Assembly: GCA_964598205.1 (NCBI GenBank)
Contig: CAZRBB010000003.1
Coordinates: 115,186 to 179,185, forward strand
Direction of reading: 5' to 3'
Length of the DNA: 64,000 bases
Source of the DNA: an uncultured Candidatus Saccharibacteria bacterium
GTDB lineage: Bacteria > Patescibacteriota > Minisyncoccia > CAIUEV01 > JAHKAQ01
In this document: piece by piece, positions 11,660-64,000 of the stretch
Layout of the letters: each line of letters opens with the position of its first letter
Position numbering within the stretch: position 1 is the stretch's first letter
The notes under the pieces: model-generated
Databases searched by the model: none
Seen by the model: the letters and a program-made list of their open reading frames with translations, nothing else
Told to the model about the DNA's origin: nothing
Translations under genes and position numbers: made by a program

Positions 11660-13414
11660 ATGAAGAAAAAGACAGTACAAATTAAAAAATCCTCTCCAAT
11701 TTTAGTAACGGCAGCGTTGCCTTATATTAATAATGTTCCCCATTTGGGGCATATTGCTGGTTCTCATTTGCCGGCGGATATTTTTACTCGTTATCTTCGG
11801 GCTACTGGCAAGGAAGTATATTTTGTAGGTGGTTCGGATGAGCATGGAACGCCTTCGGTAATCGCTGCTAAAGAATTGGGAGTTCCGGTACAGGTTTTGG
11901 CTGATCGATTGCACGCTATTCATAAAAAAGTTTACCAGAAATTGGGGATTAGTTATGACAATTACTCCCGGACTTCTTTAGCTAAACATCATTTAGTAAC
12001 ACAGGATTTTTTTAGGGAGATCAAGAAGAAATCTGAATTGATATTAGAAAAAGAAGCGGAAATGTATTACTGCGAAACGGATAAGATGTTTTTGCCGGAT
12101 CGTTTTGTGGTGGGGGTTTGCCCAAAGTGTGGCTATGATTCGGCGAATGCCGATCAATGCGAGGTTTGTAGCCAAGTGATTGCACCAGGAGAATTAATTT
12201 CTCCTTGTTGTAAGGTTTGTGGCTTGCCGCCAATAATGAAAAAAACTAAACATCTCTATCTTGATTTAGAAAAACTCTCTCTGTTATTGAATCGTTGGAT
12301 TGAAGGCAAAAAGAAAATATTTAGGCCATATGTTTATAGTTCGGCTAAAAAGTGGATTAACGAAGGGCTTAGAGCCCGATCTATTACTAGAGATCTTACC
12401 TGGGGAGTGAAGGTGCCCCAAGAAGGATTTTTAGATAAGGTTTTTTATGTTTGGTTTGATGCGCCGATTGGTTATTTAACTTTTACCAAAGAGATAAAAG
12501 AAGATTTAGAAAAAAGACTGTGGCAAGATAGAGAAGCGCGCATTTATCATTTTGTAGGGAAAGACAATATTCCTTTTCATACTATTTTTTGGCCAGCATT
12601 ACTTTTGGCGGAAGGCAAACATAATCTTCCTTATAATGTGATTGGACTGAATTATTTGAATTACGGTGGCAAGAAATTTTCTAAAAGCAAGGGGGTAGGA
12701 GTGTTTTGTTTGAACTTGCTTGATTCGCCTATTAACATTGATACTTTGCGAGCGTATTTGGCAACAGTGATTCCCGAAACCAAGGATTCTGATTTTAAAT
12801 GGGAAGAGTACCAAGAACATACCAACAGTGAGGTGATTGGAAAGTTGGGTAATTTTCTGAATAGAACTCTTTCCATGATAGATAATTATTTTGGCGGAAA
12901 GTTAGAAGCGGATTTGGGGGCTAAGAAAAGATTAACGGACCTAGATAAAAAAATTCTAAAAGAAATCAAAAATTCTTCTAAAAAGGTAGGCGGATATTTA
13001 GTAAAGGCAGAAATTCGGAAGGGATACAGGGCGGTAATGGATTTAGCACGGGCAGGGAATGTTTATTTTGATCGCTCCAAGCCGTGGGAATTAATGAAGT
13101 TAGGAAAAAGGGAAGAGGCAAAATTGGTATTGCGCTTGGCTTTCTTTTTGGCAAGATCACTGATGATTACGGCAACGCCTTTTATGCCGGAAGGAATGGC
13201 GGAAATTTGGCAAAAGCAGTTTGGCTTTTTGGGATCGCCGGGAGATTGTGGTCGGTGGGAGGAGGCAGGCGAAGTAGATTTTTCTGTGACTTACCGAACC
13301 AAAAAACCCAAGCCTTTTTATTCTAGAATAGAGGATAAAGATTTAGAGGAATTAGAAAAAGATTTGGGACAGAAGCCGGCTTTAAGAGAAATAGTAGGCT
13401 CAATTAAGAATTAG
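11660..13414 (+). CDS. metG: Methionyl-tRNA synthetase
   Basis: HIGH-type motif PHLGHIAG, KMSKS as KFSKSKG, and zinc knuckle CPKCGY...CEVC. Confidence 0.9.
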   Translation: MKKKTVQIKKSSPILVTAALPYINNVPHLGHIAGSHLPADIFTRYLRATGKEVYFVGGSDEHGTPSVIAAKELGVPVQVLADRLHAIHKKVYQKLGISYDNYSRTSLAKHHLVTQDFFREIKKKSELILEKEAEMYYCETDKMFLPDRFVVGVCPKCGYDSANADQCEVCSQVIAPGELISPCCKVCGLPPIMKKTKHLYLDLEKLSLLLNRWIEGKKKIFRPYVYSSAKKWINEGLRARSITRDLTWGVKVPQEGFLDKVFYVWFDAPIGYLTFTKEIKEDLEKRLWQDREARIYHFVGKDNIPFHTIFWPALLLAEGKHNLPYNVIGLNYLNYGGKKFSKSKGVGVFCLNLLDSPINIDTLRAYLATVIPETKDSDFKWEEYQEHTNSEVIGKLGNFLNRTLSMIDNYFGGKLEADLGAKKRLTDLDKKILKEIKNSSKKVGGYLVKAEIRKGYRAVMDLARAGNVYFDRSKPWELMKLGKREEAKLVLRLAFFLARSLMITATPFMPEGMAEIWQKQFGFLGSPGDCGRWEEAGEVDFSVTYRTKKPKPFYSRIEDKDLEELEKDLGQKPALREIVGSIKN

Positions 13415-13486
13415 TAATTCAGTATTGTTCGGTTTGTAATCGAGTTTGAGGGAGGGGGCACCTTAAAAAAACAGGAGGATCGCCTA

Positions 13487-13837
13487 ATGAGAAAGAAAAA
13501 TGGTGGAAATGGAAGGAATGGAAAGGGAAGTGGCGGTGGAATATCGTTGATTCGTTGCCTAGTTTGCTTGGATATCCATGGTTGTTCTTCTGAAAAATGG
13601 GGAGTTTGCTTTTGTGGGCTACTGTGCCGGCGTCGTCGTCGCTGTTTAATCCCATGGAGAAAAGATCTTATTTTTGTTTATCAAACTTGTATTCTATGTG
13701 CCGTTAAAAGTCAGATTCTTTTTAAAGGAACCAGTTTTTTAAACCCATTGGACGAACTCTTTCAATTATTGCCACCGGACTTTTCGGAAATTGTACCGGT
13801 AGAAATTGAAGCGGCGAAATTAAAAGAGTGCTGTTGA
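13487..13837 (+). CDS. Small Cys-rich protein (116 aa, 13 Cys, Gly-rich N-terminus); hypothetical
   Basis: Complete ORF with a strong SD aggagg 8 nt upstream, inside a GC-rich islet. The competing antisense ORF has no SD. Confidence 0.35.
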   Translation: MRKKNGGNGRNGKGSGGGISLIRCLVCLDIHGCSSEKWGVCFCGLLCRRRRRCLIPWRKDLIFVYQTCILCAVKSQILFKGTSFLNPLDELFQLLPPDFSEIVPVEIEAAKLKECC

Positions 13838-13904
13838 TTTTGGTGGAAGCGAAGTTTTTTGTTGAATCAGACCTTTTGTTGATCAATACGAGGGAGGTGA
13901 TTCG

Positions 13905-13973
13905 ATGAGCAAAGGGATGAAAAAATGGTTGAAATCTAAATGGTGGAGACAGGCAAAGAAAAGAAAATGTTAA
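13905..13973 (+). CDS. Candidate 22-aa cationic Trp/Lys-rich peptide MSKGMKKWLKSKWWRQAKKRKC
   Basis: Perfect SD gagggaggtga 4-5 nt upstream of the ATG. No homology claimed. Confidence 0.3.
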   Translation: MSKGMKKWLKSKWWRQAKKRKC

Positions 13974-14077
13974 TAATAAACGGAACGGCTCAAAATGAGC
14001 GCAAGACGGCCATCAATTGGAGAAGATGGTCGTTTTAATTTTGTTTTGATTTCTGTCTTTAATTATTTTGGCGGAAA

Positions 14078-14125
14078 TTGAAAAGAGACCCAAGGAAGCA
14101 AATTATAAGCTTTCTGGGGTCTCTT
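14078..14125 (-). terminator. Rho-independent terminator for the minus-strand secreted-protein gene
   Basis: 9-bp stem aagagaccc/gggtctctt, followed on the minus strand by TTTT. Confidence 0.55.
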
Positions 14126-14141
14126 GTTGGGGGTTATTGGG

Positions 14142-15281
14142 TTAGTTGCCGATACACTGGCAATTTAAAAATTTCCACTCTACCGTTTCCCAGCTATAAG
14201 CGCCATTTCTGCTGGGAATAGGAACGGTTCTGGCGTGGACTTCGGCGCTGTGTCCGGAGCAAGGAGTGGGCGTGGTGTTGTAATAAATCACTTTTGCCTC
14301 CCACTTCATTCTGCCTTGGTTCCATTGCAAGGAACCGGAGACATCGCAATTCCCCTTGGTACTATCATTTTTCTGCTGGAAAATAGGGGTTAGCCCATTG
14401 TTGCAGCCGTCCAAGACACTCCAATATTGGGTGTTCCGGATTTCCAGTTCTGCTCCCGGAGTGCCTGGTATCCCCAATTCCCAGAAATATCCAAAAATCG
14501 GGTGCGTTGGACATGGTTCTGGTGCGCCATTGTAAGTCAAGATCAAGCGCAGCCAGCCCCAATGGGAGGTGTAGACCAATGATCCCGAAATGTATTCGTT
14601 GCTTTCGGTGCTTACCGGACATTGAAGCATGGCCGGATAATTTTCGCATCCGGTAATGCATTCAAATTTTTTCCACTCCACTGTCTCCCAGGCAGAAGTG
14701 CCAGGGCGATTTGGGATGCGGATGTTTTGGGAGTGTTTCCCAGCCGGATGAATCTCGCAGGGTGGCGGTGCCCCATTGTAAGAGATAGCTTTCGCTTCCC
14801 ATTTTTGAGTACCCGCATTCCACTGCAAGGAACCGGAAACATCGCAGCCACTTTTCTGGGAATCATTTTGGGCTTCAATAATTACTTGGAGCCCGTTGGT
14901 GTATGTTCCGCAATTGGTACTTTCATCACAGGTGAATCTTTTCCACCGTGTGGTTTCTCCTATTTCCGTCCCTGGTCCAGGAGGAAGATTCTGTAAATAT
15001 ATCCAGGCCTCATGTTCCGGGCAAGGGACTGGCGTTTGATAGTACAGGAGAAGCCCGGCAATCCATTTTTCTCCTGACCACCAAAAGCCTGCGTCCATTT
15101 GGCAACTGTTCCAGCTGCCATCCGTTACTCCTGTATGAACTTCGGGGTAGGTAGCGGTGGTGGAATTTATTGTTTTGGCGGTCGTATTGGCCGCGGCCAT
15201 GTTAGTGTTTAAAAAACTTGCTCCAATCAAAAAAACGATCAGGGCGACTAATACGGTGAAACCGGCTGTTCTTTTTTCCAT
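14142..15281 (-). CDS. Secreted Cys/Trp-rich protein with internal tandem ~60-90 aa repeats; function unknown
   Basis: N-terminal signal/TM segment. Repeats of type CDVSGSLQWN.G..KWEAK.I.YN..P.PC..H......IP.R.G..WETVEWK.F.C, containing (QxW)-like motifs. Coding sequence is ~50% GC versus ~35% for the flanks. Confidence 0.7.
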   Translation of the reverse strand: MEKRTAGFTVLVALIVFLIGASFLNTNMAAANTTAKTINSTTATYPEVHTGVTDGSWNSCQMDAGFWWSGEKWIAGLLLYYQTPVPCPEHEAWIYLQNLPPGPGTEIGETTRWKRFTCDESTNCGTYTNGLQVIIEAQNDSQKSGCDVSGSLQWNAGTQKWEAKAISYNGAPPPCEIHPAGKHSQNIRIPNRPGTSAWETVEWKKFECITGCENYPAMLQCPVSTESNEYISGSLVYTSHWGWLRLILTYNGAPEPCPTHPIFGYFWELGIPGTPGAELEIRNTQYWSVLDGCNNGLTPIFQQKNDSTKGNCDVSGSLQWNQGRMKWEAKVIYYNTTPTPCSGHSAEVHARTVPIPSRNGAYSWETVEWKFLNCQCIGN

Positions 15282-15459
15282 GGGTCTCTCCTTGTCTCTT
15301 CTTGGTTGTGGTTTGGTGCATCAAAAAATATCCGTGAACATTCTAGATATTGGTAAGGGGCTGAGAACTCGGTATTTAATAACAAAAAAGCGATTATGTC
15401 AAGCTAAGCTGCCGATTTTCACAGGCATTTTCCGATTTTTGGGTGTTTGTTTTTTGATT

Positions 15460-17133
15460 TTAGAACAATCCGGTAATTTCTCCGTTTTTATCTAAATCTA
15501 TTTTTTCGGCCGCAGGAATGGCAGGGAGTCCGGGCATAGTCATGATTTCTCCGGCCAAAGCTACAATAAAGCCAGCACCGCTAGAGATTCTTAACTCTTT
15601 AATGGTTAAATCAAAATCGGTGGGTGCTCCTAGGAGAGTGGGGTTGCCGGAAAAAGAATATTGATTTTTAGCAATACAAACCGGAAGCTCTCCCAGTCCC
15701 TGAGCCTCTATCTTTGCTAGTTGTTTTTGAGCTTTTTCTTCCAAAACTACTTTTTGGGCGTGGTATATTTTTTGGCCAATGGCTTCTATTTTTTGGGGAA
15801 TGCTCATTTTTAGAGAGTAGGAAAAATTTAGCCGGGGATCGGGATTATTTTTAATGGATTGAAGTGCTTTTTGAGCCAAATCCAATCCACCTGCACCACC
15901 AAGTTCCCAAACGCGACTTTCGGCAAACTCAGCGGTTAATTTTTGGCAGGTTCGGGCAATCAAATTTATTTCCTGGGGTCTATCGTTTTGAAAACGATTT
16001 ACTGTTACTACTACTGGTAAGCCAAAACTTTGAAGATTTTCTAAGTGTTGTTTAAGATTGGCAATTCCTTTTTCTAATCCCGCTTGATCTTCTTTCCCAA
16101 CATCTTCTAAGAGAACGCCACCATTGTATTTCAGCGAACGAACAGTGGTCACAATAACTACTAGGCTTGGTTTTAATTTAGCCAAGCGACATTTAATATT
16201 TAAAAACTTCTCTGCTCCCAAGTCGGCACCAAAGCCGGCTTCTGTAACCAAATAATCGCCAAGCTTTAAGCCATAACGGGTGGCTAGAACACTATTGCAA
16301 CCGTGAGCAATATTGGCGAATGGTCCTCCATGAATAATGGCAGGGGTATTTTCCAGGGTTTGAACTAGGTTGGGTTTTAGGGCGTCTTTTAACAGAACGG
16401 CTAGCGGACCTTCGGCCTTAAGGCTTTCGGCATAAACTGGTTCATTGTTGTAGGTGTAAGCAATACAGATTTTCTTAAGGCGTTTTTTAAGATCGGCTAA
16501 ATTTTCTGACAAACAAAGAATGGCCATGATTTCTGAGGCCACTGTAATGTTAAAGCCGTCTTCTCGTGGCATTCCCTGGAGCTTGCCACCAAGGCCGATG
16601 ATTACTTGCCGTAAGGCGCGATCGTTCAGATCTACTGCTCGCTTCCAAAGAATTTGGCGAGGATCAATGTTTAATTTGTTGCCAAAAAACAGATGGTTGT
16701 CTATTAAGGTGGCTAGCAGATTGTTGGCAGTAGTAATGGCGTGCAGGTCGCCGGTAAAGTGAAGGTTAATATCTTCCATTGGGGCGACTTGGGAGAAGCC
16801 ACCACCACAGGCGCCACCTTTAATGCCAAAACAGGGACCCAATGAAGGTTCGCGGATGGCTAGAACAGTCTTTTTTCCTAAACGATTTAGGGCCATAGCT
16901 AGGCCAATAGAAGTAGTGGTCTTGCCTTCTCCTAGAGGAGTAGGGCTGGTAGCGGTAACCAAAATTAATTTGCCATCTGGTTTATTTTTGATTCTTTCCC
17001 AAAGCTTGGGACTGAGCTTGGCTTTATCTTCCCCATAGAGTGTTAATTCTTGGGCTTTGATTCCCAATTTTTCGGCAATTGTTTTTATGGGAAGGAGTTT
17101 AGATTTACGAGCGATTTCTAGGTCAGATTTCAT
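15460..17133 (-). CDS. fhs: Formate--tetrahydrofolate ligase
   Basis: TPLGEGKTTT P-loop and full-length FTHFS-like sequence (557 aa). Confidence 0.9.
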   Translation of the reverse strand: MKSDLEIARKSKLLPIKTIAEKLGIKAQELTLYGEDKAKLSPKLWERIKNKPDGKLILVTATSPTPLGEGKTTTSIGLAMALNRLGKKTVLAIREPSLGPCFGIKGGACGGGFSQVAPMEDINLHFTGDLHAITTANNLLATLIDNHLFFGNKLNIDPRQILWKRAVDLNDRALRQVIIGLGGKLQGMPREDGFNITVASEIMAILCLSENLADLKKRLKKICIAYTYNNEPVYAESLKAEGPLAVLLKDALKPNLVQTLENTPAIIHGGPFANIAHGCNSVLATRYGLKLGDYLVTEAGFGADLGAEKFLNIKCRLAKLKPSLVVIVTTVRSLKYNGGVLLEDVGKEDQAGLEKGIANLKQHLENLQSFGLPVVVTVNRFQNDRPQEINLIARTCQKLTAEFAESRVWELGGAGGLDLAQKALQSIKNNPDPRLNFSYSLKMSIPQKIEAIGQKIYHAQKVVLEEKAQKQLAKIEAQGLGELPVCIAKNQYSFSGNPTLLGAPTDFDLTIKELRISSGAGFIVALAGEIMTMPGLPAIPAAEKIDLDKNGEITGLF

Positions 17134-21759: not shown

Positions 21760-21788
21760 TTGCCAGAAAGTGTTATTTATGATATAGT
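21760..21788 (+). promoter_or_regulatory. Sigma70-like promoter TTGCCA-N17-TATAGT with extended -10 TG
   Basis: Hexamers at 21760-21765 and 21783-21788 with an exact 17-nt spacer. A near-identical promoter lies at 24330-24358. Confidence 0.6.
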
Positions 21789-21892
21789 ATGATGTTGTAT
21801 TACGGAGAGGCAGATTAAGAAAGAATCGGAAAGAATGAGAGAACTTTAAAAATCTGCCGAATAAAAATCAATTACCTTGAGGGAGGTCAAAC

Positions 21893-22828
21893 ATGTTTGG
21901 AATTGCAAGAGGAAGAAAACGGGAAAGAAGTTTGGCTATTGGGGCGACTGGCAGTAACGGTCGCCAGGTGTCCGGTATTTTTACGGACATCGATAATACA
22001 TTTGTTTATGATGGCTGCAAAGCGGCTACAGTGGCTGTTCTGGGCCTGGCGTGCAAACGCCGGATGCCCGTAGTTGCAGTGACCGGGGCGGATTTAAATT
22101 CGGTTTTTTCACGAATCATGGCAGACGAACTGCCATACTTTAGGGCCCTGGCTACTTCTTGCGGAACGGAGATTTATTTTTTGTCCAAAGGAGGGTATTA
22201 CCAGGATCATCATTGGGATAACCAGCTCCGAAGCAGGTTCAACCGGAAAGAAGTTTTTTTCCGGGCGGAGAATTTGGCAAGGGAATGGGCTGTAACAAGC
22301 CCAGGCTGTGAACTGGAAATTCAGAAGAAGAAGGTTACCGAGAAGTACAAGGTAAGCTTCTATTTTAAAGCCAGCGACGGCTTGGTAGCGTCGATGGCGG
22401 CAGAGGAAATTTTAAGCTACTTTTCTGAGTACCAGTTGGCTTGGTGTGAGGATATTACTTGGGAACCGAAAGACGGTTTGCGGCGGTACTGTGTGGATGT
22501 GTTAGCCGCAAACAAGCAAGACGCGGTAGAATACATTACGGAGCAACTTGGGATCACTGATGGCATTGTAGCTGGAGATTCTGGCAACGATGCCGAAATG
22601 GTTCTGGATTGCGATCGGCGTTTTGTCGGAGTAGTTGTTGGCGGTGCGAGGGAAGAGCTGAAAGAAGCGCTCCGCAAGCGTGATCCGCGGCCAGTCGGCA
22701 AAATCCAGGACAGCAGAGGTTTTTCTCGGTACTACCTTGACGGACGCTTTGTCCTGGTGGACGAACATCCGGACAGGAGAGGGCCGGAGTCAATTTTAGC
22801 AGCTCTGGAGGTGCTTTACAGCGCTTAA
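21893..22828 (+). CDS. HAD-IIB phosphatase, sucrose-phosphate phosphatase-like
   Basis: Motif I TDIDNTF and motif IV AGDSGNDAEM. SD gagggagg. GC-rich coding sequence. Immediately upstream of the SPS-like gene. Confidence 0.75.
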   Translation: MFGIARGRKRERSLAIGATGSNGRQVSGIFTDIDNTFVYDGCKAATVAVLGLACKRRMPVVAVTGADLNSVFSRIMADELPYFRALATSCGTEIYFLSKGGYYQDHHWDNQLRSRFNRKEVFFRAENLAREWAVTSPGCELEIQKKKVTEKYKVSFYFKASDGLVASMAAEEILSYFSEYQLAWCEDITWEPKDGLRRYCVDVLAANKQDAVEYITEQLGITDGIVAGDSGNDAEMVLDCDRRFVGVVVGGAREELKEALRKRDPRPVGKIQDSRGFSRYYLDGRFVLVDEHPDRRGPESILAALEVLYSA

Positions 22829-22897
22829 GGAGTAAAAATCAAAAAAACCAAAAAACAGAAGCAGGCTCTGGGGCGACTTGGGGCCGAGGAGTGGATA

Positions 22898-24268
22898 ATG
22901 GAAGCGACAGCAAAAACAGCGACAGGACGGCAAGAGGCGGGGAAAGCCATTTACGTGGTTAGTACCCATGGTTACTTTGACCTGAGTTCGGAGACCGGCA
23001 GTGTATCGACAGCCGGTCGGCCGGACACCGGTGGGCAGACGGTATATACCGTCGAGCTTGCCAAGGCGTTGGGCCGGCTGGGCTACCTGGTATTTCTCGT
23101 GGTCCGGTGGTTTGACCCGTCCAAAAGAGAGTTGCAAAAGCTGGGCGATAATGCCTGGTTGCTGCGACTTCGGGGCGGACCTTGGGGATTCGTTCCCAAG
23201 GAAAGGATCTACTCGTTACTTCCGGAAATTTCCGACAATCTGGTCTCCTTTATAGAGGATGACTGGAAGGAAATGTTTAGGGAAGCAGGCGATAAGGCAC
23301 CAGAAAATGTAGATCCGGCACTGATCCATGGCCACTACATCGATGGCGGATTAGTAGCCGTTTCCGTGGCCCGCCATTTCCGTTGTCCGGTTTTTTGGAC
23401 CAGTCATTCGCTGGGTGCATTGAAAAGAGAGCGGATGGGTGGTGATCCCGAAAAGATGGAAACGGAGTTCAACTTTCGTCATCGGATAGAACAGGAAGTA
23501 GCGGTGATGAAGAAGGTCGCTAAACATGGCGGACAAACAGTGACCGCCAAAACAGAACCGGGGGACATTGAGCGCCTTTATGGGCTTGAGTTGCCGGATC
23601 TGCAGTTTATTCCGCCGGGGGTGGACACAAAAAAGTTTCATCCACTGCCATGTGGGAAAGAGATTGATCCGATTCCCGGTTGGCCAGCAGTTGGTGGACC
23701 TGTTGTCTTAATGGGTGGCCGGATTGCTAAGACCAAGGGCTATGAGCTAGCGCTCTATGCGTTTCACCGAGTGTTGCGTGAATTTCCAGACGCAAGCTTG
23801 GTGATATTTGGTGGATCGGATAACCCGTCTGGAGAGGAACAAGCTGTTCTCCAGGTAATGGACGATTACCGGGAAAAAAAAGGGATTGCCCGGCGCGTCT
23901 TTTTTCTTGGTGGCTTGACCCATGACCAGCTTCCAAAAGTTTACCGGCGAGCAGACTTGTTTTTGCTGCCGAGCAAGCACGAACCTTTTGGGATGGTACC
24001 GCTGGAGGCAGCAGCTTGCGGAACACCGGTAGTGGTCAGTTGCCATGCCGGGATTGCTTCGGAACTGAAGGACGGCGAGAATTGTTTGATCGTTGATCCC
24101 GAGGATACCCACGAGTTGGCAGAAGCGATGGCGACGCTGTTGCGCTCTTGCGAATGCGCCAAAAAAGTCGCTAAAAACGGTCACTTGACCGTCACCCGGG
24201 ATTATTCTTGGGAAGGCATCGCCAGGAGGCACTTAATTTTTTGGCGCGCCAATGGCGCCGTGATTTGA
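22898..24268 (+). CDS. Sucrose-phosphate synthase-like GT4 glycosyltransferase (GT domain only)
   Basis: GRPDTGGQTVYTVELAKALG, IHGHYIDGG, SHSLGALKRERM, PPGVDTKKF and EPFGMVPLEAAACGTPVV align with the SPS/sucrose-synthase family signatures. Confidence 0.85.
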   Translation: MEATAKTATGRQEAGKAIYVVSTHGYFDLSSETGSVSTAGRPDTGGQTVYTVELAKALGRLGYLVFLVVRWFDPSKRELQKLGDNAWLLRLRGGPWGFVPKERIYSLLPEISDNLVSFIEDDWKEMFREAGDKAPENVDPALIHGHYIDGGLVAVSVARHFRCPVFWTSHSLGALKRERMGGDPEKMETEFNFRHRIEQEVAVMKKVAKHGGQTVTAKTEPGDIERLYGLELPDLQFIPPGVDTKKFHPLPCGKEIDPIPGWPAVGGPVVLMGGRIAKTKGYELALYAFHRVLREFPDASLVIFGGSDNPSGEEQAVLQVMDDYREKKGIARRVFFLGGLTHDQLPKVYRRADLFLLPSKHEPFGMVPLEAAACGTPVVVSCHAGIASELKDGENCLIVDPEDTHELAEAMATLLRSCECAKKVAKNGHLTVTRDYSWEGIARRHLIFWRANGAVI

Positions 24269-24329
24269 ACCTTATAGCAGGGAGGAAGAAGAGAAGCCTA
24301 ATTGCTTTTACTTCTACCTCCCTTTTTTG

Positions 24330-24358
24330 TTACCAATAAAATAAAAGTATGATATAGT
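24330..24358 (+). promoter_or_regulatory. Sigma70-like promoter TTACCA-N17-TATAGT with extended -10 TG
   Basis: Shares the 15-mer tatgatatagtatga with the promoter at 21760-21788. Confidence 0.6.
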
Positions 24359-24429
24359 ATGAAAAATAGATCGGAGCACCTTACCAAAAACAAACAACCC
24401 CCAACATCTGGTTGAGGGAGGTACTTTAC

Positions 24430-25191
24430 ATGGGAACTCTTGTATTCGATATCGACGGAACATTGACTAAGGCAGGAGGGTTCGCGGCCGTTCCATGTGA
24501 ACCTCCAACAGAAGTAAAAACCGCTATCCAAGCACAGCAACGAAAGCATCAGATCGTGCTGTTAACTGGACAACCTTTGCGCGTGGCTACCGGGATGGCT
24601 AGAATGCTGGATCTTCCGCATTGTTTGGTAGCACCAGACTATGGGGCGTTCGTTTGTAGCCCAAGAAATCTGGCAGAAAAGGAGTTTCTGATTAATAGAA
24701 AGGCTTTAGAGGCTTTAATGTTGGTTAAGAATTTTTTAGTGCCGTCGTTTCAAAAATTAGGAGGCAGAATTGACTCCCGCGACGGCATCGGCATTATCAG
24801 TTTTATTTGGGAGTGTCGAGATGGTTGGGCCGATGCTCAGCGGCTCGTGGTCTCTTCTGCCTACGACAAGTTTGTGGCTAATAACGGTTTACGGTTTCAG
24901 TGGAACAGGATTGATTTGTCCATGAATGTAATGCCGGCCGAGCTTTCAAAGGGACTGATTGCTTCCAGGTATTCCGATATTCTGGTGGCAGCCGGAGACA
25001 CCAGCAGCGATCTGCCGGTAATTCAAAAAGCTCTTTTTCCCATAGTTACCCATGACGAGGGAATGTCGATTCATCCTGATCTTGCGGCAGTCGCTGTGGA
25101 TCGGGGATATATCGCTTCCCCAGAAGAACATCATGGATGGGGGTTGATTTCAGGACTCCAAGCTGCACAAGCGGCTGGGATACTGAATTAA
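24430..25191 (+). CDS. HAD-IIB phosphatase (second SPP/Cof-like paralog). The start is placed at ATG 24430.
   Basis: FDIDGTLT and AAGDTSSDLP motifs. SD gagggagg 8 nt upstream. Confidence 0.7.
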   Translation: MGTLVFDIDGTLTKAGGFAAVPCEPPTEVKTAIQAQQRKHQIVLLTGQPLRVATGMARMLDLPHCLVAPDYGAFVCSPRNLAEKEFLINRKALEALMLVKNFLVPSFQKLGGRIDSRDGIGIISFIWECRDGWADAQRLVVSSAYDKFVANNGLRFQWNRIDLSMNVMPAELSKGLIASRYSDILVAAGDTSSDLPVIQKALFPIVTHDEGMSIHPDLAAVAVDRGYIASPEEHHGWGLISGLQAAQAAGILN

Positions 25192-25333: not shown

Positions 25334-26404
25334 ATGAGTCGACACAACTATGGAGTGCGGATCGATGCTAGCGGGACATATCACGGTATGCGTTCTCTTG
25401 TTTTGGAAAACGAAAAATTACGGATTACTGTATTGTTAGATAAGGGAACGGATATTGTTGAGTTTTTGCATAAGCCAACAGATACTGATTTTATGTGGAA
25501 ATCACCACTGGATTGGCATTCGGCCGGTCAATTTTTGCCTACTACTCATAGTTCTATTAGCAGTTTTATGGATTCTTTTGGCGGTGGGTGGCAAGAATGT
25601 TTTCCTAGCGGTGGTCCGCATACTCAATACAAAGGCACAGAGATTGGTTTGCACGGTGAGGTGTGCACTATTCCTTGGGACTGCATTATTACTAAGGATT
25701 CTCCGGAAGTTGTGGAAGCGGTTTGTACTGTTAGAACTTATCGCACCCCTTTTATAATCAAAAAAACATTGAGACTAAAACGGGAAAGTTCAGTGCTAGA
25801 AATGGACGAAGAAATTACCAATGAAGGAAAGGAAGATTTACCTTATATGTGGGGACATCACCCTTCTTTTGGCGAAAATATTTTAGATGATTCTTGCCGA
25901 ATTGATTTACCGGCCGGCAAGGTAGAAACTTACAGTAAAGTTCAAGATAAAATTTCTTCCCAGTTTGCTCCGGAAACTAAGGGTAAGTGGCCGTTTTTAA
26001 AAAACATTAAAGGGGAGCTGATTGACAATTCAAAGGTTCTTCCGGCTAGTAAAAAAACGCACGATCTTTTATTTATCTCTGGATTAAAAGCGGGTTGGTA
26101 CGCCTTGACTAACACCAAGAAAAAATTGGGCATTGGAATGAGTTGGGATGAAAAACTTTTTCCCTATGTGTGGTTTTGGCAAGTTTATGGTGGAGGAAGC
26201 GGTTATCCTTGGTATGGTCGAACTTATAATATTGCGCTTGAACCTTGGACCAGCTGGCCCAACGATGGGGTGGAGGTGGCGGTAAAAAATGGAACAGCCC
26301 CTATTCTAAAAGCGGGGAAAACGATTAAAACTAATTTTTCAGCGGTTGTTTATTGTGGGAAAAAAAAGGTTAGTTTAATCGATAGAAAAGGGAATGTTAA
26401 ATAG
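25334..26404 (+). CDS. Aldose 1-epimerase (mutarotase) superfamily protein, DUF4432-like
   Basis: WGHHPSFGEN resembles the mutarotase HPYFN motif. 356 aa. Confidence 0.55.
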   Translation: MSRHNYGVRIDASGTYHGMRSLVLENEKLRITVLLDKGTDIVEFLHKPTDTDFMWKSPLDWHSAGQFLPTTHSSISSFMDSFGGGWQECFPSGGPHTQYKGTEIGLHGEVCTIPWDCIITKDSPEVVEAVCTVRTYRTPFIIKKTLRLKRESSVLEMDEEITNEGKEDLPYMWGHHPSFGENILDDSCRIDLPAGKVETYSKVQDKISSQFAPETKGKWPFLKNIKGELIDNSKVLPASKKTHDLLFISGLKAGWYALTNTKKKLGIGMSWDEKLFPYVWFWQVYGGGSGYPWYGRTYNIALEPWTSWPNDGVEVAVKNGTAPILKAGKTIKTNFSAVVYCGKKKVSLIDRKGNVK

Positions 26405-26508
26405 ATTCTGCTAGGATTCATCTTTTTTCTTGGTGGGCAAGGTTTTTACGACTTATTCATTTGTATTTTTGTTCCTTAAATTCTGTATGATACAATATCT
26501 GTACCGTT

Positions 26509-26604
26509 CGCTTACCGTAATCTAATTACGCCCCGCCTCGGACGGCGGGTATGCTCACTTACTTCTCCGGCTTTGCCTTGAACTATAACCAAATGTGTAA
26601 GTCC
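26509..26604 (+). repeat. Dispersed TIR repeat family, copy B (5'-truncated; carries the GC-hairpin insert ccgcctcggacggcggg)
   Basis: cgcttaccgtaatctaattacgcc...ggctttgccttgaactataaccaaatgtgtaagtcc. Confidence 0.8.
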
Positions 26605-26634
26605 TAATTTTCATAAAATAATTAAAATAAAATT

Positions 26635-28194
26635 ATGTCCATTCCATCTTCTGGCCTAAAGAATAAAGTACAATTGATTACTTATGCCGACAGTCTTGGT
26701 CGGAATTTAAAGGAACTAAATATTGTTTTAGATAATTATTTTAAAGGGGTTGTTTACGGGGTGCATATTCTACCTTTCTATCCGTCTTCTTCGGATCGCG
26801 GCTTTTCTCCTTTAACGCATTTTAAAGTAGATTCGGCTTTTGGAGATTGGGAAGATGTAGAAAGAATCGCTAAAAAGTACGATCTAATGTGCGATTTTAT
26901 TCCGAATCATGTTTCTGCTAAGTCTGATTGGTTTTGTGATTTTTTAGAAAAAGGAGACAAGTCTCTTTATAAAGATTATTTTATTACGGCGGAGAAATTT
27001 TCTAGGCGAATCAAAAAAAATCGAGAAATTTTTCCAGCACTGACCGATTACCTAGAAAGAATTGCTAATAAATTAAGGCGATTAGATATTGTTTTTCATA
27101 AAGGGGGTGTTAATCGTTTTGTGCTAAAAAAAATTTATCGTCCTCGTCCGGGAACACCGTTTGTGGAGTTTAAGTTAAAAGATGGCACAATAAGAAATAT
27201 TTGGTGTACTTTTTCTGCTGATCAGATTGATCTAGATATCAACAATCCCGAAGTTAAGAATCATTTTAAAAAAACTTTAATTTTTTTGGCTGAAAGGGGA
27301 ATAAGATTAGTGCGCTTGGATGCGGTGGGTTATGCAGCCAAAGAGAGAGGAACTAATAACTTTTTAATTCCCGAAACTTATCAGTTGATTGAAGATCTGA
27401 CTAGAATTGCGCATCAGCGAGGAATAAAAATTCTTCCAGAAGTCCATAATCATTACACTTTCCAAATGCAGTTGGCGCGGGCTAAGGGAGTGGATTATAT
27501 TTACGATTTTGCTTTGCCTCTTTTATTAATGAATGCACTTTTTACCAAAAATGTTAAAAATTTAAAACACTGGATTAAGATTAGACCCAAAAAGGCGATT
27601 ACCACCCTAGACACGCACGACGGCTTGCCAGTGCCAGATGTAGAAGATTTAATGCCAGAAGAAGAACGAAAGATGGTGATTAAAAGAATTCGGGAAAATG
27701 GTGGGAATGATGCATTGCGGGCTTCTGGGGCCAATTCCAACAATGTGGATGTTTATCAGATTAATTGCACTTATTATTCTGCTCTAGGGGAAGATGATAA
27801 TAGTTATATTATTGCGCGGGCGGTGCAATTTTTTGTGCCGGGAATTCCCCAAGTTTATTATGTGGGACTTTTGGCTGGCAAAAATGATGCTCAAAGATTA
27901 AATAAAACCGGTATTGGTCGAGACATTAATCGTCATGCTTATACTATTGCTGAAGTAGCGGAAGAAATGAAACGGCCGGTGGTGGAGCGGTTGTTTTGGT
28001 TGATTCGTTTCCGGAATCGCTATCCAGCATTTAATGGTCGATTTTATACCAAGAAAACGGAAGAATCTGCTTTGGTTATAGGATGGAAAAAGGAAACCTG
28101 TTATTGTGAGCTGAGAGTGGATTTTTTAACCAAGAGAGCAATCGTGGAATATAGGGAGAAGAAGTCGGGTAAGCGTCGTCGCCATGAGCTTTAG
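26635..28194 (+). CDS. GH13_18 sucrose phosphorylase family (sucrose, glucosylglycerol or glucosylglycerate phosphorylase)
   Basis: KNKVQLITYADSLG...GVHILPFYPSSSDRGFSP...IPNHVS, RLDAVGYAAKE, LDTHDG, and YQINCTYYSALG...QFFVPGIPQVYYVGLLAGKND closely follow sucrose phosphorylase signatures. Confidence 0.9.
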   Translation: MSIPSSGLKNKVQLITYADSLGRNLKELNIVLDNYFKGVVYGVHILPFYPSSSDRGFSPLTHFKVDSAFGDWEDVERIAKKYDLMCDFIPNHVSAKSDWFCDFLEKGDKSLYKDYFITAEKFSRRIKKNREIFPALTDYLERIANKLRRLDIVFHKGGVNRFVLKKIYRPRPGTPFVEFKLKDGTIRNIWCTFSADQIDLDINNPEVKNHFKKTLIFLAERGIRLVRLDAVGYAAKERGTNNFLIPETYQLIEDLTRIAHQRGIKILPEVHNHYTFQMQLARAKGVDYIYDFALPLLLMNALFTKNVKNLKHWIKIRPKKAITTLDTHDGLPVPDVEDLMPEEERKMVIKRIRENGGNDALRASGANSNNVDVYQINCTYYSALGEDDNSYIIARAVQFFVPGIPQVYYVGLLAGKNDAQRLNKTGIGRDINRHAYTIAEVAEEMKRPVVERLFWLIRFRNRYPAFNGRFYTKKTEESALVIGWKKETCYCELRVDFLTKRAIVEYREKKSGKRRRHEL

Positions 28195-28223
28195 GAAATA
28201 AATGCCTTATTAATCAAAATAAA

Positions 28224-29448: not shown

Positions 29449-29570
29449 GAACCTTTTGGTCGGAAGATAAACTTCTCCCAAACGGCTCAAAATGAGTCGG
29501 AAAGAACATTACAAACCAATCAACAAAAAATCCAAATGGGTAAGAACCAATAACCGAGGGAGGTTAAAGC

Positions 29571-31142
29571 ATGGAAGCACAAGCACAAACATTACAGAGT
29601 CAGGGGCAGACTGTTGCCAGCATAGCGACGGTCAAAGAATTACAACTTTTTAATGCACCGGTAGTAAATTGGGTGCGCGGCTGGCCGGCAATTAGTTTTG
29701 AGCCGGAGTTTTCCAAAGAAGGCAACCAGATTGCGGATATTATTCACGCGGGATGTTATGCTAAGCGAGTGCCAGTGGAAGTAGTGAAAGAGCTGGTGAA
29801 GATTGCTTACGCAACTGGCTTAGTTGCTGGTAGTGATGGGCATCGGATCGGTTACGACGGTTCTTGTATTGCACAAATTGCCCCGGAGTGCGCAGGTCGG
29901 AACGGTGACGGAATTTTTCTGGCTGATCTTGACCGGTTACGGAGCCAAAAGCCGGCGAGCGTTCCGGAATTTGTGACGCAGAGCGTAAAGTTTTTTCAGC
30001 GGAACGGAGATTTATTTTCCGGATTCTCCGGTTGCAATGGCGACTTTTCCAAAAAGTTTAAGTATGGAGTTTTCCGGATGGAATCGCTTTATTCCATTCC
30101 GCCGGGATTTAGGGAAATGGGACTTGAGGATTTTTTCCGCTTCGTGGCGATAAATCTTTGGGAGCGAAAAGAATTGTTTGGGGAGAATTTTGTGGAGGTG
30201 CATCGATCTTCTACAATTCCAAAGGACGACGACCCCGAAAGATGTTTATTCGAAACCTTTGGTCACTGGGAACAACTGGAAGGCGTCCTGGACACACAGC
30301 AGTGGGGGAAGGTGCCGCTTTTCTGCCGCATTGCTCCGTCTTACGGTGAGTGCTGTTTGGGGTGGGAACTGGCAATCACGGTGACCGATCCTCGGTCCAA
30401 CCTGTTTACCGTTGGGGTAAATATGGTGTGGGACAGTGTGCGGCATCAGTTTGTGCCGATTATCAACAAGATCCAGACCATGGTGCTTCACCTCGACAAG
30501 TGTCTTCGGTATTGGGGGCAGGAAATGCTTTCTGACGACGAGCTCTTGAGCCGAAAACTGTTCTTGGAGCTTCAGGGGGAAATCAACAAGTTTTTGGGTG
30601 GTGACCTGTTTTACACCATGATCGCCGCGATTGTTTCTTTCTATCGGTTGCGAGAGTATCCAGCAATCAAGGGGATTTGCGGTCGGGATAATCTTTGGCT
30701 GAAGTATCACGCCAAAGAAGTTCTGGCCAAGAAGGGTGTGGCGGCGGCAGAACAGGTACGGAAACGATCGGAGGAGATTTACGACAAGAAATTTGCTCAC
30801 CTGGGATTTGCCCGAACGCACGGTTGCTGGGAATTGCCGCAGGAGAGCTATGCTAAATTTCTTCGGCGAGCACTGGTTCCATATCAACTGGCACAAAACG
30901 AGATCATAAGGGTAGAGGTGGAGCGAGGCGGTCGGATTCAGCCAAAGAACATTAGTCTTCCGACTTATGCGGAAAAAACAACGCCGAATGGGTTGGGAGC
31001 GGTTTTAAAGGTGATGGACAATTGTTTTTGTTCCGTCCCCTTGGAGATTGGTTCCTTTCAGGGGATAGGCGAAGTTCTCCAGGAACGGCGGAACGAGCGT
31101 TCAAGAATCAAAAAAGAGAGGGAGGCCCTGTTGATTGGTTAA
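29571..31142 (+). CDS. Hypothetical protein, 523 aa, GC-rich, with no recognisable motif
   Basis: Long clean ORF with SD gagggagg 6 nt upstream, ~50% GC, and a terminator at 31180-31212. Confidence 0.6.
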   Translation: MEAQAQTLQSQGQTVASIATVKELQLFNAPVVNWVRGWPAISFEPEFSKEGNQIADIIHAGCYAKRVPVEVVKELVKIAYATGLVAGSDGHRIGYDGSCIAQIAPECAGRNGDGIFLADLDRLRSQKPASVPEFVTQSVKFFQRNGDLFSGFSGCNGDFSKKFKYGVFRMESLYSIPPGFREMGLEDFFRFVAINLWERKELFGENFVEVHRSSTIPKDDDPERCLFETFGHWEQLEGVLDTQQWGKVPLFCRIAPSYGECCLGWELAITVTDPRSNLFTVGVNMVWDSVRHQFVPIINKIQTMVLHLDKCLRYWGQEMLSDDELLSRKLFLELQGEINKFLGGDLFYTMIAAIVSFYRLREYPAIKGICGRDNLWLKYHAKEVLAKKGVAAAEQVRKRSEEIYDKKFAHLGFARTHGCWELPQESYAKFLRRALVPYQLAQNEIIRVEVERGGRIQPKNISLPTYAEKTTPNGLGAVLKVMDNCFCSVPLEIGSFQGIGEVLQERRNERSRIKKEREALLIG

Positions 31143-34871: not shown

Positions 34872-34944
34872 GGGCCAATAGCTCAGTTGGTAGAGCGCAG
34901 CATTCGCATTGCTGAGGTCAGGGGTTCGATTCCCCTTTGGTCCA
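34872..34944 (+). tRNA. tRNA-Ala (anticodon CGC)
   Basis: GGGCCAATAGCTCAGTTGGTAGAGCGCAGCATTCGCATTGCTGAGGTCAGGGGTTCGATTCCCCTTTGGTCCA. G3:U70 Ala identity pair; anticodon loop TTCGCAT; CCA not encoded. Confidence 0.9.
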
Positions 34945-35003
34945 CAATTTTAAAAATTCCCTTCCGGTTTTTTACGCGGTAGAGACATATCTTAAAATGA
35001 GCG

Positions 35004-39988: not shown

Positions 39989-40065
39989 TGGTCGGGGCAG
40001 CCGGACTTGAACCGGCGACCTCACGCACCCCATGCGTACGCGCTAGCCAACTGCGCTATGCCCCG
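39989..40065 (-). tRNA. tRNA-Pro (anticodon GGG), CCA encoded
   Basis: Reverse complement CGGGGCATAGCGCAGTTGGCTAGCGCGTACGCATGGGGTGCGTGAGGTCGCCGGTTCAAGTCCGGCTGCCCCGACCA. Anticodon loop ATGGGGT with G37. Confidence 0.85.
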
Positions 40066-45887: not shown

Positions 45888-45973
45888 CCGATATGGTGAA
45901 ATTGGTAGACACGCGACACTCAAAATGTCGTGGACTTCGGTCCATGTCGGTTCGACTCCGACTATCGGCACCA
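45887..45973 (+). tRNA. tRNA-Leu (anticodon CAA), class II long variable arm, CCA encoded
   Basis: GCCGATATGGTGAAATTGGTAGACACGCGACACTCAAAATGTCGTGGACTTCGGTCCATGTCGGTTCGACTCCGACTATCGGCACCA. Confidence 0.9.
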
Positions 45974-63947: not shown

Positions 63948-64000
63948 TATAGTAGAAGAAGGGGTGTTTTTAAAAATGTTTATTCGTTATATGATAAAGG

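What the first reader, a model, noticed from the sequence alone, without database searches (positions are those of the whole stretch)
13419..15300. GC-rich (~50%) islet between metG and fhs with atypical genes
The composition shifts abruptly from the ~35% GC host background. The islet holds a secreted Cys/Trp repeat protein on the minus strand and two small plus-strand ORFs with unusually strong SDs (aggagg; gagggagg). The same GAGGGAGG SD recurs on GC-rich genes in the 21.5-31 kb island (21893, 24430, 29571). This suggests a common foreign donor or a shared expression signal.
Basis: seen in the sequence. Interest (0 to 1): 0.55.

Follow-up and report, generated by a model that had tools for sequence, protein, structure and literature searches.

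The report
Atypical secreted repeat-protein gene islet
The GC-rich patch between metG and fhs is one self-contained gene for a secreted, cysteine/tryptophan-rich protein made of four copies of an undescribed small domain, in a candidate-phyla-radiation (Parcubacteria-like) genome; it belongs to a small class of GC-shifted genes with strong ribosome-binding sites in a genome that otherwise hardly uses them, and is most likely a laterally acquired accessory gene.

Summary
Only 14142-15281 (one minus-strand gene, "CW379") is GC-rich: 0.49 against a host gene mean of 0.384. The 13419-14141 part is 0.40, and the background is 39%, not 35%.

About two thirds of the gene's GC excess comes from its amino-acid make-up. 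The rest is a significant synonymous shift (GC3 0.52 against 0.34 for same-strand host genes, z about 5).

CW379 has its own promoter block, SD and terminator. It encodes a Sec-exported protein of four ~80-residue beta-beta-beta-alpha-beta repeats. The domain has no Pfam, NCBIfam or PDB match, but is homologous (hhalign 97%) to the N-terminal domain of proteobacterial PL14 polysaccharide-lyase proteins.

The few multi-repeat homologues sit in other SD-poor Parcubacteria-like contigs, in different contexts, always with a strong SD.

In this window, strong SDs occur on all 5 GC-rich genes, on the 2 small ORFs, and on 1 of 48 host genes. Native rplU and dnaK have neither an SD nor raised GC3.

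Best reading: a laterally exchanged accessory cassette, probably a glycan-binding surface protein. A donor shared with the 21.9-31 kb islands is not supported for this gene. The metG/fhs adjacency test could not be run because no close relatives exist.

The parts
14142..15281 (-). CDS of the 379-aa secreted Cys/Trp-rich protein ('CW379'). It has a signal peptide (residues ~1-31), a low-complexity Thr/Asn/Ala linker, and four ~80-aa repeats in an A-B-A'-B' arrangement (R2 and R4 are 55% identical). This is the only GC-rich part of the finding.
   Evidence: ORF and translation. GC 0.491, GC3 0.516. Homologues P0008, P0009 and the L171 fragment. AF2 models. The 379-aa start, rather than the 352-aa NCBI call, is supported by the conserved N-terminus and SD in L171.
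15282..15419 (-). Promoter and ~95-nt 5' leader of CW379. A perfect -35 TTGACA lies at 15402-15397 and TTAAAT at 15379-15374, 17 nt apart. The same block can also be read as an extended -10, TGnCATAAT. The SD AAGGAGA is at 15293-15287, 5 nt before the ATG.
   Evidence: Sequence. A 31-nt block including TTGACATAATCGC...TTAAATA is 100% conserved, and the whole leader ~80% conserved, in the independent contig L171. The leader is less structured than shuffles (z +1.4). No Rfam match. TTGACA-17-N6 also precedes the homologues in L168 and L172.
14083..14125 (-). Intrinsic terminator hairpin of CW379, followed by UUUUCAAUUU on the minus strand.
   Evidence: Fold -20.6 kcal/mol, z -5.9, 0 of 200 shuffles as stable.
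14003..14048 (+). Plus-strand intrinsic terminator (12-bp stem, then UUUUAAUUUUGUUUUG). It ends the aspS-metG transcription unit ~590 nt after the metG stop, so the two small ORFs lie on that transcript. It converges with the CW379 terminator.
   Evidence: Fold -15.6 kcal/mol, z -3.3. Sequence.
13487..13837 (+). 116-aa ORF preceded by AGGAGG (13473-13478) and, further up, GAGGGAGG (13448-13455). It is Cys-rich (13 Cys) with a low-complexity N-terminus. Whether it is a real gene is unresolved.
   Evidence: SD duplex -10.3 kcal/mol. GC3 0.308 is host-like. The coding score of 0.035 is ambiguous. No Pfam, NCBIfam, PHROG or PADLOC hit. JGI called this ORF and Logan called the opposite-strand 78-aa ORF.
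13890..13973 (+). GAGGGAGG SD (13890-13897), a 7-nt spacer, then a 22-codon ORF (13905-13973) encoding MSKGMKKWLKSKWWRQAKKRKC. It ends in TAA TAA TAA. Status unresolved.
   Evidence: SD duplex -12.7 kcal/mol, the strongest in the window. Coding score -0.195.
14060..14077 (+). 18-nt exact direct repeat of metG 12883-12900 (TAATTATTTTGGCGGAAA), just outside the CW379 terminator. It could be a recombination scar or chance.
   Evidence: blastn-short E 5.9e-4 within the window.
21893..25191 (+). Not part of the islet, but the same class. This GC-rich, SD-led island holds a HAD-IIB/S6PP-like phosphatase (21893-22828), a GT4 SPS/MshA-like glycosyltransferase (22898-24268) and a second HAD-IIB (24430-25191).
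   Evidence: GC3 0.45-0.55. SDs. Pfam and NCBIfam. Observed-minus-expected GC +0.04 to +0.08.
29571..31142 (+). Not part of the islet, but the same class. A GC-rich, GAGGGAGG-led gene for a 523-aa protein that matches no family.
   Evidence: Its dinucleotide signature is close to that of the 21.9-25.2 kb island (delta* 55).

Best explanation
The GC-rich tract is a single, self-contained expression cassette. It consists of a conserved promoter block, an unstructured ~95-nt leader, SD AAGGAGA, a 379-codon ORF and a strong terminator. It sits between fhs and the aspS-metG operon of a Parcubacteria-like (CPR) bacterium.

Shown: the product has a Sec signal peptide and four tandem, Cys-bearing copies of an ~80-residue beta-beta-beta-alpha-beta domain. 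The domain has no described family or solved-structure neighbour. It is homologous to the N-terminal accessory domain of proteobacterial PL14 polysaccharide-lyase proteins.

Inferred function: an exported, disulfide-stabilised, multivalent glycan-binding or adhesive surface protein.

Inferred origin: an accessory gene of the CPR gene pool that reached this genome laterally, probably from another, GC-richer SD-using bacterium. It keeps its own expression signals. It belongs to a discrete class of SD-led, GC-shifted genes in a genome whose native genes, including rplU and dnaK, are translated without an SD. This is likelier than its being a native gene or part of the same transfer as the 21.9-31 kb sugar-metabolism islands.

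The two SD-led small ORFs lie in host-like DNA on the metG transcript. They are not demonstrably part of the cassette.
For: Composition:
- GC3 is 0.516 against a same-strand host mean of 0.338 (sd 0.035). G at four-fold sites is 0.20 against 0.06.
- After fixing the amino-acid sequence and same-strand host codon usage, the GC residual is +0.038 (host sd 0.010, max 0.027).
- Dinucleotide delta* to the host is 135, in the top 2.2% of host segments.
- The synonymous-codon likelihood ratio lies outside all 48 host genes.

SD class:
- Strong SDs occur on 5 of 5 GC-rich genes against 1 of 48 host genes. This holds when alternative starts are allowed.
- Native rplU has duplex energy -0.9 kcal/mol and GC3 0.271. 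dnaK has no SD and GC3 0.308.
- In related SD-poor contigs, rplS, rpsB and tsf lack strong SDs and rpsO has only a moderate one (-7.8); the strongest SDs sit on orphan genes.

Cassette:
- The promoter and leader are conserved in L171.
- The terminators are strong.

Patchy family and varied contexts:
- Only 12 hits among 1.84 billion representatives.
- Homologues sit next to G5-DPBB/GH1 in L168, next to iPGM/aspS in L172, and next to fhs/metG here.
- No homologue lies next to fhs in the three nearest fhs relatives.
- Three independent short contigs break at 15372-15422, the outer edge of the promoter block.

Protein:
- Repeats.
- Full-length model pLDDT 72.9. Domain model pLDDT 94.4, pTM 0.82.
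- hhalign to the PL14-protein N-termini gives 97%, E 9e-11, and PL14 is confirmed by Pfam.
- The P0008 homologue is followed by GH1 and GH42-like genes.
- The same junctions appear in three or more independent assemblies.
Against: - About 65% of the GC excess is simply amino-acid composition.
- No mobility gene, tRNA or convincing flanking repeat borders the gene.
- The multi-repeat family is so far seen only in Parcubacteria-like contigs. CW379/P0008 divergence (40% aa) is similar to that of the nearby G5-DPBB protein (46%), which fits vertical descent.
- Homologues also show raised GC3 in their own genomes: 0.41 against 0.21-0.30 in L172, and 0.35 against ~0.30 in L168. The 77%-identical L171 copy has diverged at four-fold sites (59% identity) yet is equally GC-rich. 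This suggests a maintained, gene-specific bias rather than un-ameliorated foreign DNA.
- No donor was identified.
- Glycan binding is inferred only from domain association and neighbours. No fold match to any CBM was found.
Confidence: 0.5

Rival explanations
1. Old resident. CW379 is a vertically inherited, lineage-specific Parcubacterial surface-protein gene. Its GC-richness comes mainly from a Thr/Gly/Ser/Pro/Ala/Trp/Cys-rich sequence, plus a gene-specific synonymous bias and an SD kept by selection, for example for strong or regulated translation of an abundant exported protein.
For: - Amino-acid content explains 65% of the GC excess.
- In three SD-poor contigs the family member carries the strongest SD of its locus.
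- In L172 and here, and only marginally in L168, the family member also has above-background GC3.
- The L171 copy keeps ~0.5 GC at four-fold sites despite 41% divergence there.
- The SD and promoter are conserved between the window and L171.
- CW379/P0008 divergence is similar to that of the neighbouring G5-DPBB protein.
- No mobility signatures were found.
Against: - Native high-expression genes in the same genome (rplU, dnaK) have neither an SD nor raised GC3.
- The shift is a general GC increase, including G at four-fold sites against the strand skew. It is not only the NNC preference seen in dnaK.
- Genomic contexts differ in every genome.
- The family is extremely sparse.
- Contigs break at the cassette edge.
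Confidence: 0.3
2. Common donor, single source. CW379, the small ORFs and the 21.9-25.2 and 29.6-31.1 kb islands all came from one foreign donor that uses the GAGGGAGG SD.
For: - All are GC-shifted and SD-led.
- GAGGGAGG is enriched, confined to the + strand, and placed before ATGs in the spacer and in both islands.
- A 16-nt exact match links 13984 and 29481.
- The three GC peaks lie within 17 kb.
Against: - CW379's own SD is AAGGAGA, not GAGGGAGG.
- Its dinucleotide signature is not closer to the islands than host segments are, whereas the two islands resemble each other.
- Its synonymous shift is about half theirs.
- The GAGGGAGG-bearing spacer is host-like in GC (0.398).
- CW379's homologues are in Parcubacteria-like genomes, whereas the island genes are sugar-phosphate enzymes of unknown source.
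Confidence: 0.1
3. Artefact: a chimeric assembly or binning contaminant produced the GC-rich patch.
For: There is a sharp GC step at the gene borders. Short contigs end in the fhs-CW379 spacer.
Against: Identical junctions on both sides appear in independent assemblies: a 20-kb Logan contig, a 106-kb JGI contig, and NCBI and JGI contigs of 205 and 198 kb that carry the same proteins. The flanking promoter and terminator fit the gene.
Confidence: 0.02

Closest known systems
N-terminal accessory domain of proteobacterial PL14 (Pfam PF21294) polysaccharide-lyase-like proteins
   Same: Homologous ~65-residue core with the same conserved W, N, P, H, P, G/E positions (hhalign 97%, E 9e-11). Both occur in exported proteins.
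   Different: In those proteins it is a single copy fused to a catalytic lyase domain and lacks the cysteines. Here there are four tandem Cys-bearing copies and no catalytic domain. The domain has no name, structure or assay in either setting.
Tandem-repeat carbohydrate-binding or adhesin proteins (multivalent CBM/lectin-like surface proteins)
   Same: Signal peptide, flexible linker, and repeated small aromatic-rich, disulfide-bearing domains. There is an association with glycan-active enzymes, through the PL14 fusion and the GH1/GH42-like neighbours of P0008.
Small compositional genomic islets (single-gene horizontal acquisitions)
   Same: Atypical GC, codon and dinucleotide usage confined to one gene with its own promoter and terminator. 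It lies near other atypical islands.
   Different: There is no integrase, tRNA target or flanking repeats. Most of the GC excess is amino-acid driven. Absence from relatives could not be tested.
SD-poor translation initiation in Parcubacteria (Tsurumaki et al. 2022, PMC9297842: the anti-SD motif was detected in only 48% of Parcubacteria)
   Same: Native genes here and in four related contigs almost all lack an SD.
   Different: A minority class of accessory, GC-shifted genes carries very strong SDs. Whether this organism's 16S rRNA keeps the anti-SD is unknown, because there is no rRNA in the window.

Membership tests
Horizontally acquired genomic islet | Base composition and codon usage deviate from the host after controlling for strand and amino-acid content | tested here: met
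   The GC residual is +0.038 (3.8 host sd), and GC3 is 0.517 against 0.394 expected. Dinucleotide delta* is 135, in the top 2.2%. About 65% of the raw GC excess is amino-acid composition.
Horizontally acquired genomic islet | Absent from the same locus in close relatives, or a presence/absence polymorphism | not testable with these tools
   The nearest fhs relatives are <=68% identical with a different gene order. The nearest metG relatives are <=55% identical with no synteny. The only other copies of this genome are ~100% identical strains.
Horizontally acquired genomic islet | Mobility signatures (integrase or transposase, tRNA target, flanking direct repeats) | tested here: not met
   There is no tRNA within 19 kb and no mobility domain in the neighbours. 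The only repeat is an 18-nt match to metG at one edge.
Horizontally acquired genomic islet | Phylogenetic incongruence, or an identifiable donor | not tested
Same-donor class as the 21.9-25.2 and 29.6-31.1 kb islands | Shared oligonucleotide signature and shared SD motif | tested here: not met
   Delta* from CW379 to the islands is 99 and 117, no closer than host segments, while the islands are 55 from each other. The SD is AAGGAGA rather than GAGGGAGG.
PL14-associated N-terminal domain family (unnamed) | Profile-profile homology over the domain core | tested here: met
   hhalign probability 97%, E 9e-11, 64 aligned columns. W33, P46, H50, P62 and E71 are invariant across 15 domain copies.
Known carbohydrate-binding modules or lectins | Sequence or fold similarity to a characterised CBM; demonstrated glycan binding | tested here: not met
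Type IV pilin or pseudopilin | Prepilin motif G|F(T/S)L(I/V)E with Glu at +5 | tested here: not met
   The N-terminus reads ..RTAGFTVLVAL.. with Val, not Glu, at +5. The homologues P0008 and L171 lack the GF motif and have ordinary AXA signal-peptide ends.
Phage or defence-system protein | Match to PHROGs or PADLOC models, or presence on viral or plasmid records | tested here: not met
   No PHROG or PADLOC hit. No tblastn hit in phage or plasmid collections. No relative in IMG/VR contigs.

The most novel reading that the evidence does not exclude
In SD-poor Parcubacteria there may be a discrete, recurrent class of accessory genes that carry very strong SDs and GC-shifted codons. This would reflect gene flow from SD-using donors, possibly the organisms these episymbionts live on. 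Such genes would be initiated by a route different from that of native leader-poor genes. CW379 would be one of them: a new-fold, multivalent glycan-binding adhesin used for attachment to the partner cell.
Probability: 0.15. Interest if true: 0.65.

Novelty: new member of a known kind. Interest (0 to 1): 0.35.

Why it matters
It matters modestly, for three reasons.

1. It defines an undescribed small extracellular domain with a confident model and no solved-structure neighbour. The domain is shared between CPR repeat proteins and proteobacterial PL14 lyases. That makes it a candidate new carbohydrate-binding module and a candidate attachment factor for an episymbiotic lineage whose surface biology is poorly known.

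2. It gives a clean local example in which a strong SD and raised GC3 together mark a minority gene class in a genome whose native genes, ribosomal protein genes included, lack SDs. If this holds genome-wide, SD presence could be a cheap marker of accessory or foreign genes in SD-poor CPR lineages. It also raises the question of how such genes are translated where the anti-SD may be missing.

3. It is a caution for composition-based island calls. Strand asymmetry and amino-acid content explained most of the apparent signal here.

Tried and rejected
- **metG as anchor for relatives** (genome and metagenome scans). The best hits are only 45-55% identical, from Clostridia/Christensenella MAGs and DPANN archaea, with no shared neighbours. 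metG does not track the organism, so the adjacency test failed.
- **fhs as anchor**. The nearest hits are <=68% identical and labelled Moranbacteria or Parcubacteria. Their order is DXS-fhs-(MgsA)-folD-rluD-rplS, unlike the window.
- **Word-based homologue searches** with CW379 and with alignment A1 returned essentially only the query itself. The exhaustive HMMER search was needed.
- **'C3-only codon signature means translational selection'**. I rejected this once host genes were split by strand. The window has a strong strand asymmetry at synonymous sites.
- **'SD plus high GC3 marks native highly expressed genes'.** This was suggested by rpsO in L168. I rejected it for this genome because rplU and dnaK have neither, and rplS, rpsB and tsf in relatives lack strong SDs.
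- **Rfam on the spacer and on the leader.** Nothing was found.
- **ORF22 as a Trp attenuator leader.** I rejected this because no plus-strand gene follows its terminator.
- **Homology between the small ORFs and the small SD-led ORFs in L168 and L174.** None was found.
- **Phage, plasmid or defence origin.** No hits.
- **Strain variants** (L178, L164, L165). They are ~100% identical and say nothing about evolutionary depth.
Full report
**1. What is in the sequence**

The window is 39.1% GC. In the flagged interval only the minus-strand ORF 14142-15281 is GC-rich, at 0.491. The 727-bp stretch 13415-14141 (metG stop to that ORF) is 0.396 (13419-14141: 0.398). It is the longest spacer in the window, but not GC-rich.

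Sliding 1140-bp windows reach 0.49 GC at three places only: 14.1-15.3, 21.8-24.6 and 29.6-31.1 kb.

The ORF encodes a 379-aa protein. It has a basic and hydrophobic N-terminal signal sequence, a Thr/Asn/Ala-rich linker, 15 Cys and 18 Trp (4.0% and 4.7%, against 0.9% and 1.1% in the other proteins), and four internal repeats.

Both small plus-strand ORFs and their SDs exist as described.

**2. How much of the GC signal is real**

Host genes show a strong strand asymmetry at synonymous sites. For plus-strand genes, C at four-fold sites is 0.11 and G is 0.23. For minus-strand genes, C is 0.33 and G is 0.06. An initial impression that the gene has a 'C-ending only' bias was therefore a strand effect.

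Against same-strand host genes, GC3 is 0.516 against 0.338 +/- 0.035. The largest departure is G at four-fold sites, 0.20 against 0.06.

I then kept the amino-acid sequence fixed and applied same-strand host codon usage. This predicts GC 0.455, against 0.493 observed and a host gene mean of 0.384.
- About 65% of the excess is amino-acid composition.
- About 35% is codon choice, a residual of +0.038. Host residuals have sd 0.010 and max 0.027.
- The four other GC-rich genes have larger residuals, +0.04 to +0.08.

The dinucleotide signature is also atypical: delta* is 135, in the top 2.2% of host segments. A synonymous-codon likelihood ratio places the gene outside all 48 host genes, but below the other GC-rich genes.

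**3. The SD association**

I scored the 20 nt upstream of each start against the canonical anti-SD. Eight of 55 ORFs are at or below -8.5 kcal/mol:
- the five GC-rich genes (14142, 21893, 22898, 24430, 29571);
- the two small ORFs (13487, 13905);
- one host gene (49851).

The other 47 host genes are at or above -6, and most are near 0. Allowing any alternative start in the first 40 codons does not change the picture. The association has P about 2e-6, or 9e-5 under the lenient count.

GAGGGAGG occurs six times, all on the + strand, against 1.86 expected. Four sites are 6-8 nt before an ATG.

Native highly expressed genes do not belong to this class. rplU (52776-53096) has duplex energy -0.9 kcal/mol and GC3 0.271. 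dnaK has no SD and GC3 0.308.

Published work reports the anti-SD motif in only 48% of Parcubacteria (PMC9297842). Whether this organism has it cannot be told from the window.

**4. Who the organism is, and the relatives test**

The nearest fhs proteins are <=68% identical. Where named, they are Moranbacteria, Parcubacteria or Patescibacteria. The window holds ordinary bacterial housekeeping genes.

metG is an outlier. Its best hits are 45-55% identical, in Clostridia/Christensenella MAGs and DPANN archaea, and share no neighbours.

The three nearest fhs relatives share the order DXS-fhs-(MgsA)-folD-rluD-rplS. None of that is found here, and none has a CW379 homologue beside fhs.

All other contigs carrying these exact proteins are ~100% identical strains with the same junctions. 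The same result does rule out an assembly chimera.

**5. The gene as a cassette**

Upstream of the ATG lie SD AAGGAGA (15293-15287) and a block with TTGACA (15402-15397), 17 nt, then TTAAAT.

A 537-bp contig from an unrelated assembly (L171) matches window 15419-14897 at 77% nucleotide identity.
- The promoter block is 100% conserved over 31 nt.
- The leader is ~80% conserved and the SD is conserved.
- The protein is 77% identical.

The leader is unstructured (z +1.4) and matches no Rfam family.

Downstream, a -20.6 kcal/mol hairpin (14083-14125, z -5.9) terminates the gene. A convergent plus-strand terminator (14003-14048, -15.6 kcal/mol, z -3.3) ends the aspS-metG unit. This places the two small ORFs on the metG transcript.

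Short contigs from two other samples end at 15422 and 15372, and L171 starts at 15419. These breaks cluster at the outer edge of the promoter block. This suggests a variable junction but does not prove one.

**6. The protein family**

There is no Pfam, NCBIfam, PHROG or PADLOC match. There is no hit in plasmid, phage or IMG/VR collections.

An exhaustive HMMER search of 1.84 billion representatives found 12 hits. The informative ones are:

| Hit | Description |
|---|---|
| P0008 | 364 aa, 41% identical, four repeats |
| P0009 | two repeats, annotated 'Patescibacteria group bacterium' |
| P0010, P0016 | fragments |
| P0017, P0011 | single-domain proteins |
| P0013, P0014 | domain precedes a PL14 polysaccharide-lyase domain |

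P0013, P0014 and their cluster mates sit in a proteobacteria-like context with FimV, BCCT and UmuDC. A profile of the CPR repeats aligns to the N-terminus of the PL14 proteins with 97% probability, E 9e-11. Across 15 domain copies, W33, P46, H50, P62 and E71 are invariant.

**7. Homologues in their own genomes**

- P0008 lies in a 34.5%-GC, SD-poor contig (L168), directly after a G5-DUF348-DPBB gene and before GH1, EamA and GH42-like genes. Its GC3 is 0.35, near native. Its SD, AAGGAGG, is the strongest of 22 genes.
- P0009 lies in a 34%-GC contig (L172) between iPGM and aspS. Its GC3 is 0.41, against 0.21-0.30 for the neighbours. Its likely true start (Met31) follows GGGAGGAA; the annotated TTG start is the TTGACA -35 box.
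- In four related contigs the native rplS, rpsB and tsf genes lack strong SDs. rpsO has a moderate one (-7.8). The strongest SDs are on orphan ORFs.

**8. Interpretation**

Shown:
- a self-contained gene for an exported four-repeat protein of an undescribed domain family;
- a significant but modest synonymous GC shift;
- membership of a strong-SD minority class in an SD-poor genome;
- a sparse family placed in different contexts in different genomes.

Inferred:
- lateral acquisition from the CPR accessory gene pool (about 0.5);
- a glycan-binding or adhesive role, based on the PL14 fusion, the glycosidase neighbours of P0008, and the aromatic and disulfide-rich tandem architecture.

The main rival (about 0.3) is an old resident with a gene-specific bias. 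Three observations favour it. The family shows raised GC3 in several genomes. The L171 copy stays GC-rich despite 41% divergence at four-fold sites. CW379/P0008 divergence is similar to that of the neighbouring G5 protein.

A single donor shared with the 21.9-31 kb islands is unlikely for this gene (about 0.1). The two large islands resemble each other (delta* 55) but not CW379 (99 and 117). The SD motifs also differ.

The small ORFs remain unverified. Their SDs are among the strongest in the window, but they lie in host-like DNA, have no homologues, and have ambiguous or negative coding scores.

**9. Verdict**

It over-extended the coordinates, understated the background GC and over-linked the gene to the larger islands. 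The thing itself is an ordinary kind of object, a single-gene accessory islet encoding an orphan secreted repeat protein. Two points are mildly interesting: an uncharacterised extracellular domain shared with PL14 lyases, and a clean association between strong SDs and GC-shifted genes in an SD-poor CPR genome.

Noticed in passing
window 21893-25191 and 25334-29054: The GC-rich island encodes an S6PP-like HAD-IIB phosphatase, a GT4 sucrose-phosphate-synthase/MshA-like glycosyltransferase and a second HAD-IIB phosphatase. Host-like-GC genes follow directly: DUF4432, a sucrose phosphorylase (TIGR03852, E 1e-159) and an NTP-transferase. Together they look like a sugar or compatible-solute module, part foreign and part native.
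   Followed up: partly
window 29571-31142: A 523-aa GC-rich, GAGGGAGG-led protein has no Pfam, NCBIfam, PHROG or PADLOC match. Its dinucleotide signature is close to that of the 21.9-25.2 kb island (delta* 55). A 99.97% identical strain (L178) has the same context.
   Followed up: partly
window 21778-21792 and 24348-24362: An exact 15-nt repeat, TATGATATAGTATGA, lies about 100 and about 65 nt upstream of the GAGGGAGG SDs of the 21893 and 24430 genes. It looks like a shared -10-region or promoter element within the island.
   Followed up: partly
whole window: There is a very strong strand asymmetry at synonymous sites of host genes. At four-fold sites, plus-strand genes have C 0.11 and G 0.23, and minus-strand genes have C 0.33 and G 0.06. 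Cumulative GC skew rises across the whole 64 kb. Any codon-usage comparison here must be made per strand.
   Followed up: yes
window 11660-13414 (metG): MetRS is phylogenetically odd for a Parcubacteria-like genome. Its best matches, 45-55% identical, are Clostridia/Christensenella MAGs and DPANN or other archaea. Yet its GC3 and upstream region are host-like. It may be an ancient, fully ameliorated transfer.
   Followed up: no
window 14060-14077 vs 12883-12900; 13984-13999 vs 29481-29496: An 18-nt exact direct repeat links the spacer next to the CW379 terminator with the inside of metG (E 5.9e-4). A 16-nt exact match, AACGGCTCAAAATGAG, links the spacer with the region upstream of the 29571 gene (E 0.009). 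Their significance is unknown.
   Followed up: partly
L171 positions 291-293 (orthologous to window ~15131-15129): The 77%-identical relative has an in-frame TGA where the window has GGA (Gly), splitting its CW gene call into 47-aa and 79-aa pieces. The cause could be a pseudogene, a sequencing error or a UGA=Gly recoding lineage. One codon cannot distinguish these.
   Followed up: no
window 15201-15281; L172 10001-10093: There are two annotation issues. The NCBI-derived call for CW379 starts at Met28 (352 aa) and drops the signal peptide, while JGI aa. The annotated TTG start of P0009 is the -35 TTGACA box, and the likely start is Met31, after GGGAGGAA.
   Followed up: yes
window 14622-14996(+), 15157-15495(+), 22796-23137(-), 23747-24232(-), 30246-30896(-): All the long spurious ORFs that overlap another gene on the opposite strand fall inside, or (15157-15495) partly over, the GC-rich genes. 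This is expected when stop codons become rare. They are a trap for gene callers.
   Followed up: no
L174 10048-10251: In a Moranbacteria-like relative, the position just downstream of fhs holds a 67-aa orphan ORF with the strongest SD of that locus (ATAAGGAGGTGG, -13.5 kcal/mol). It is unrelated in sequence to anything in the islet.
   Followed up: partly
window 52776-53096: rplU (ribosomal protein L21, 106 aa) fell below my ORF length cut-off. It has no SD and GC3 0.271, and served as a native high-expression control.
   Followed up: yes
window 63591-63949; 34872-34945; 39989-40065; 45887-45973: RNase P RNA class A (177 bits) and tRNA-Ala(CGC), tRNA-Pro(GGG) and tRNA-Leu(CAA) are present. None is adjacent to any GC-rich island.
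   Followed up: no
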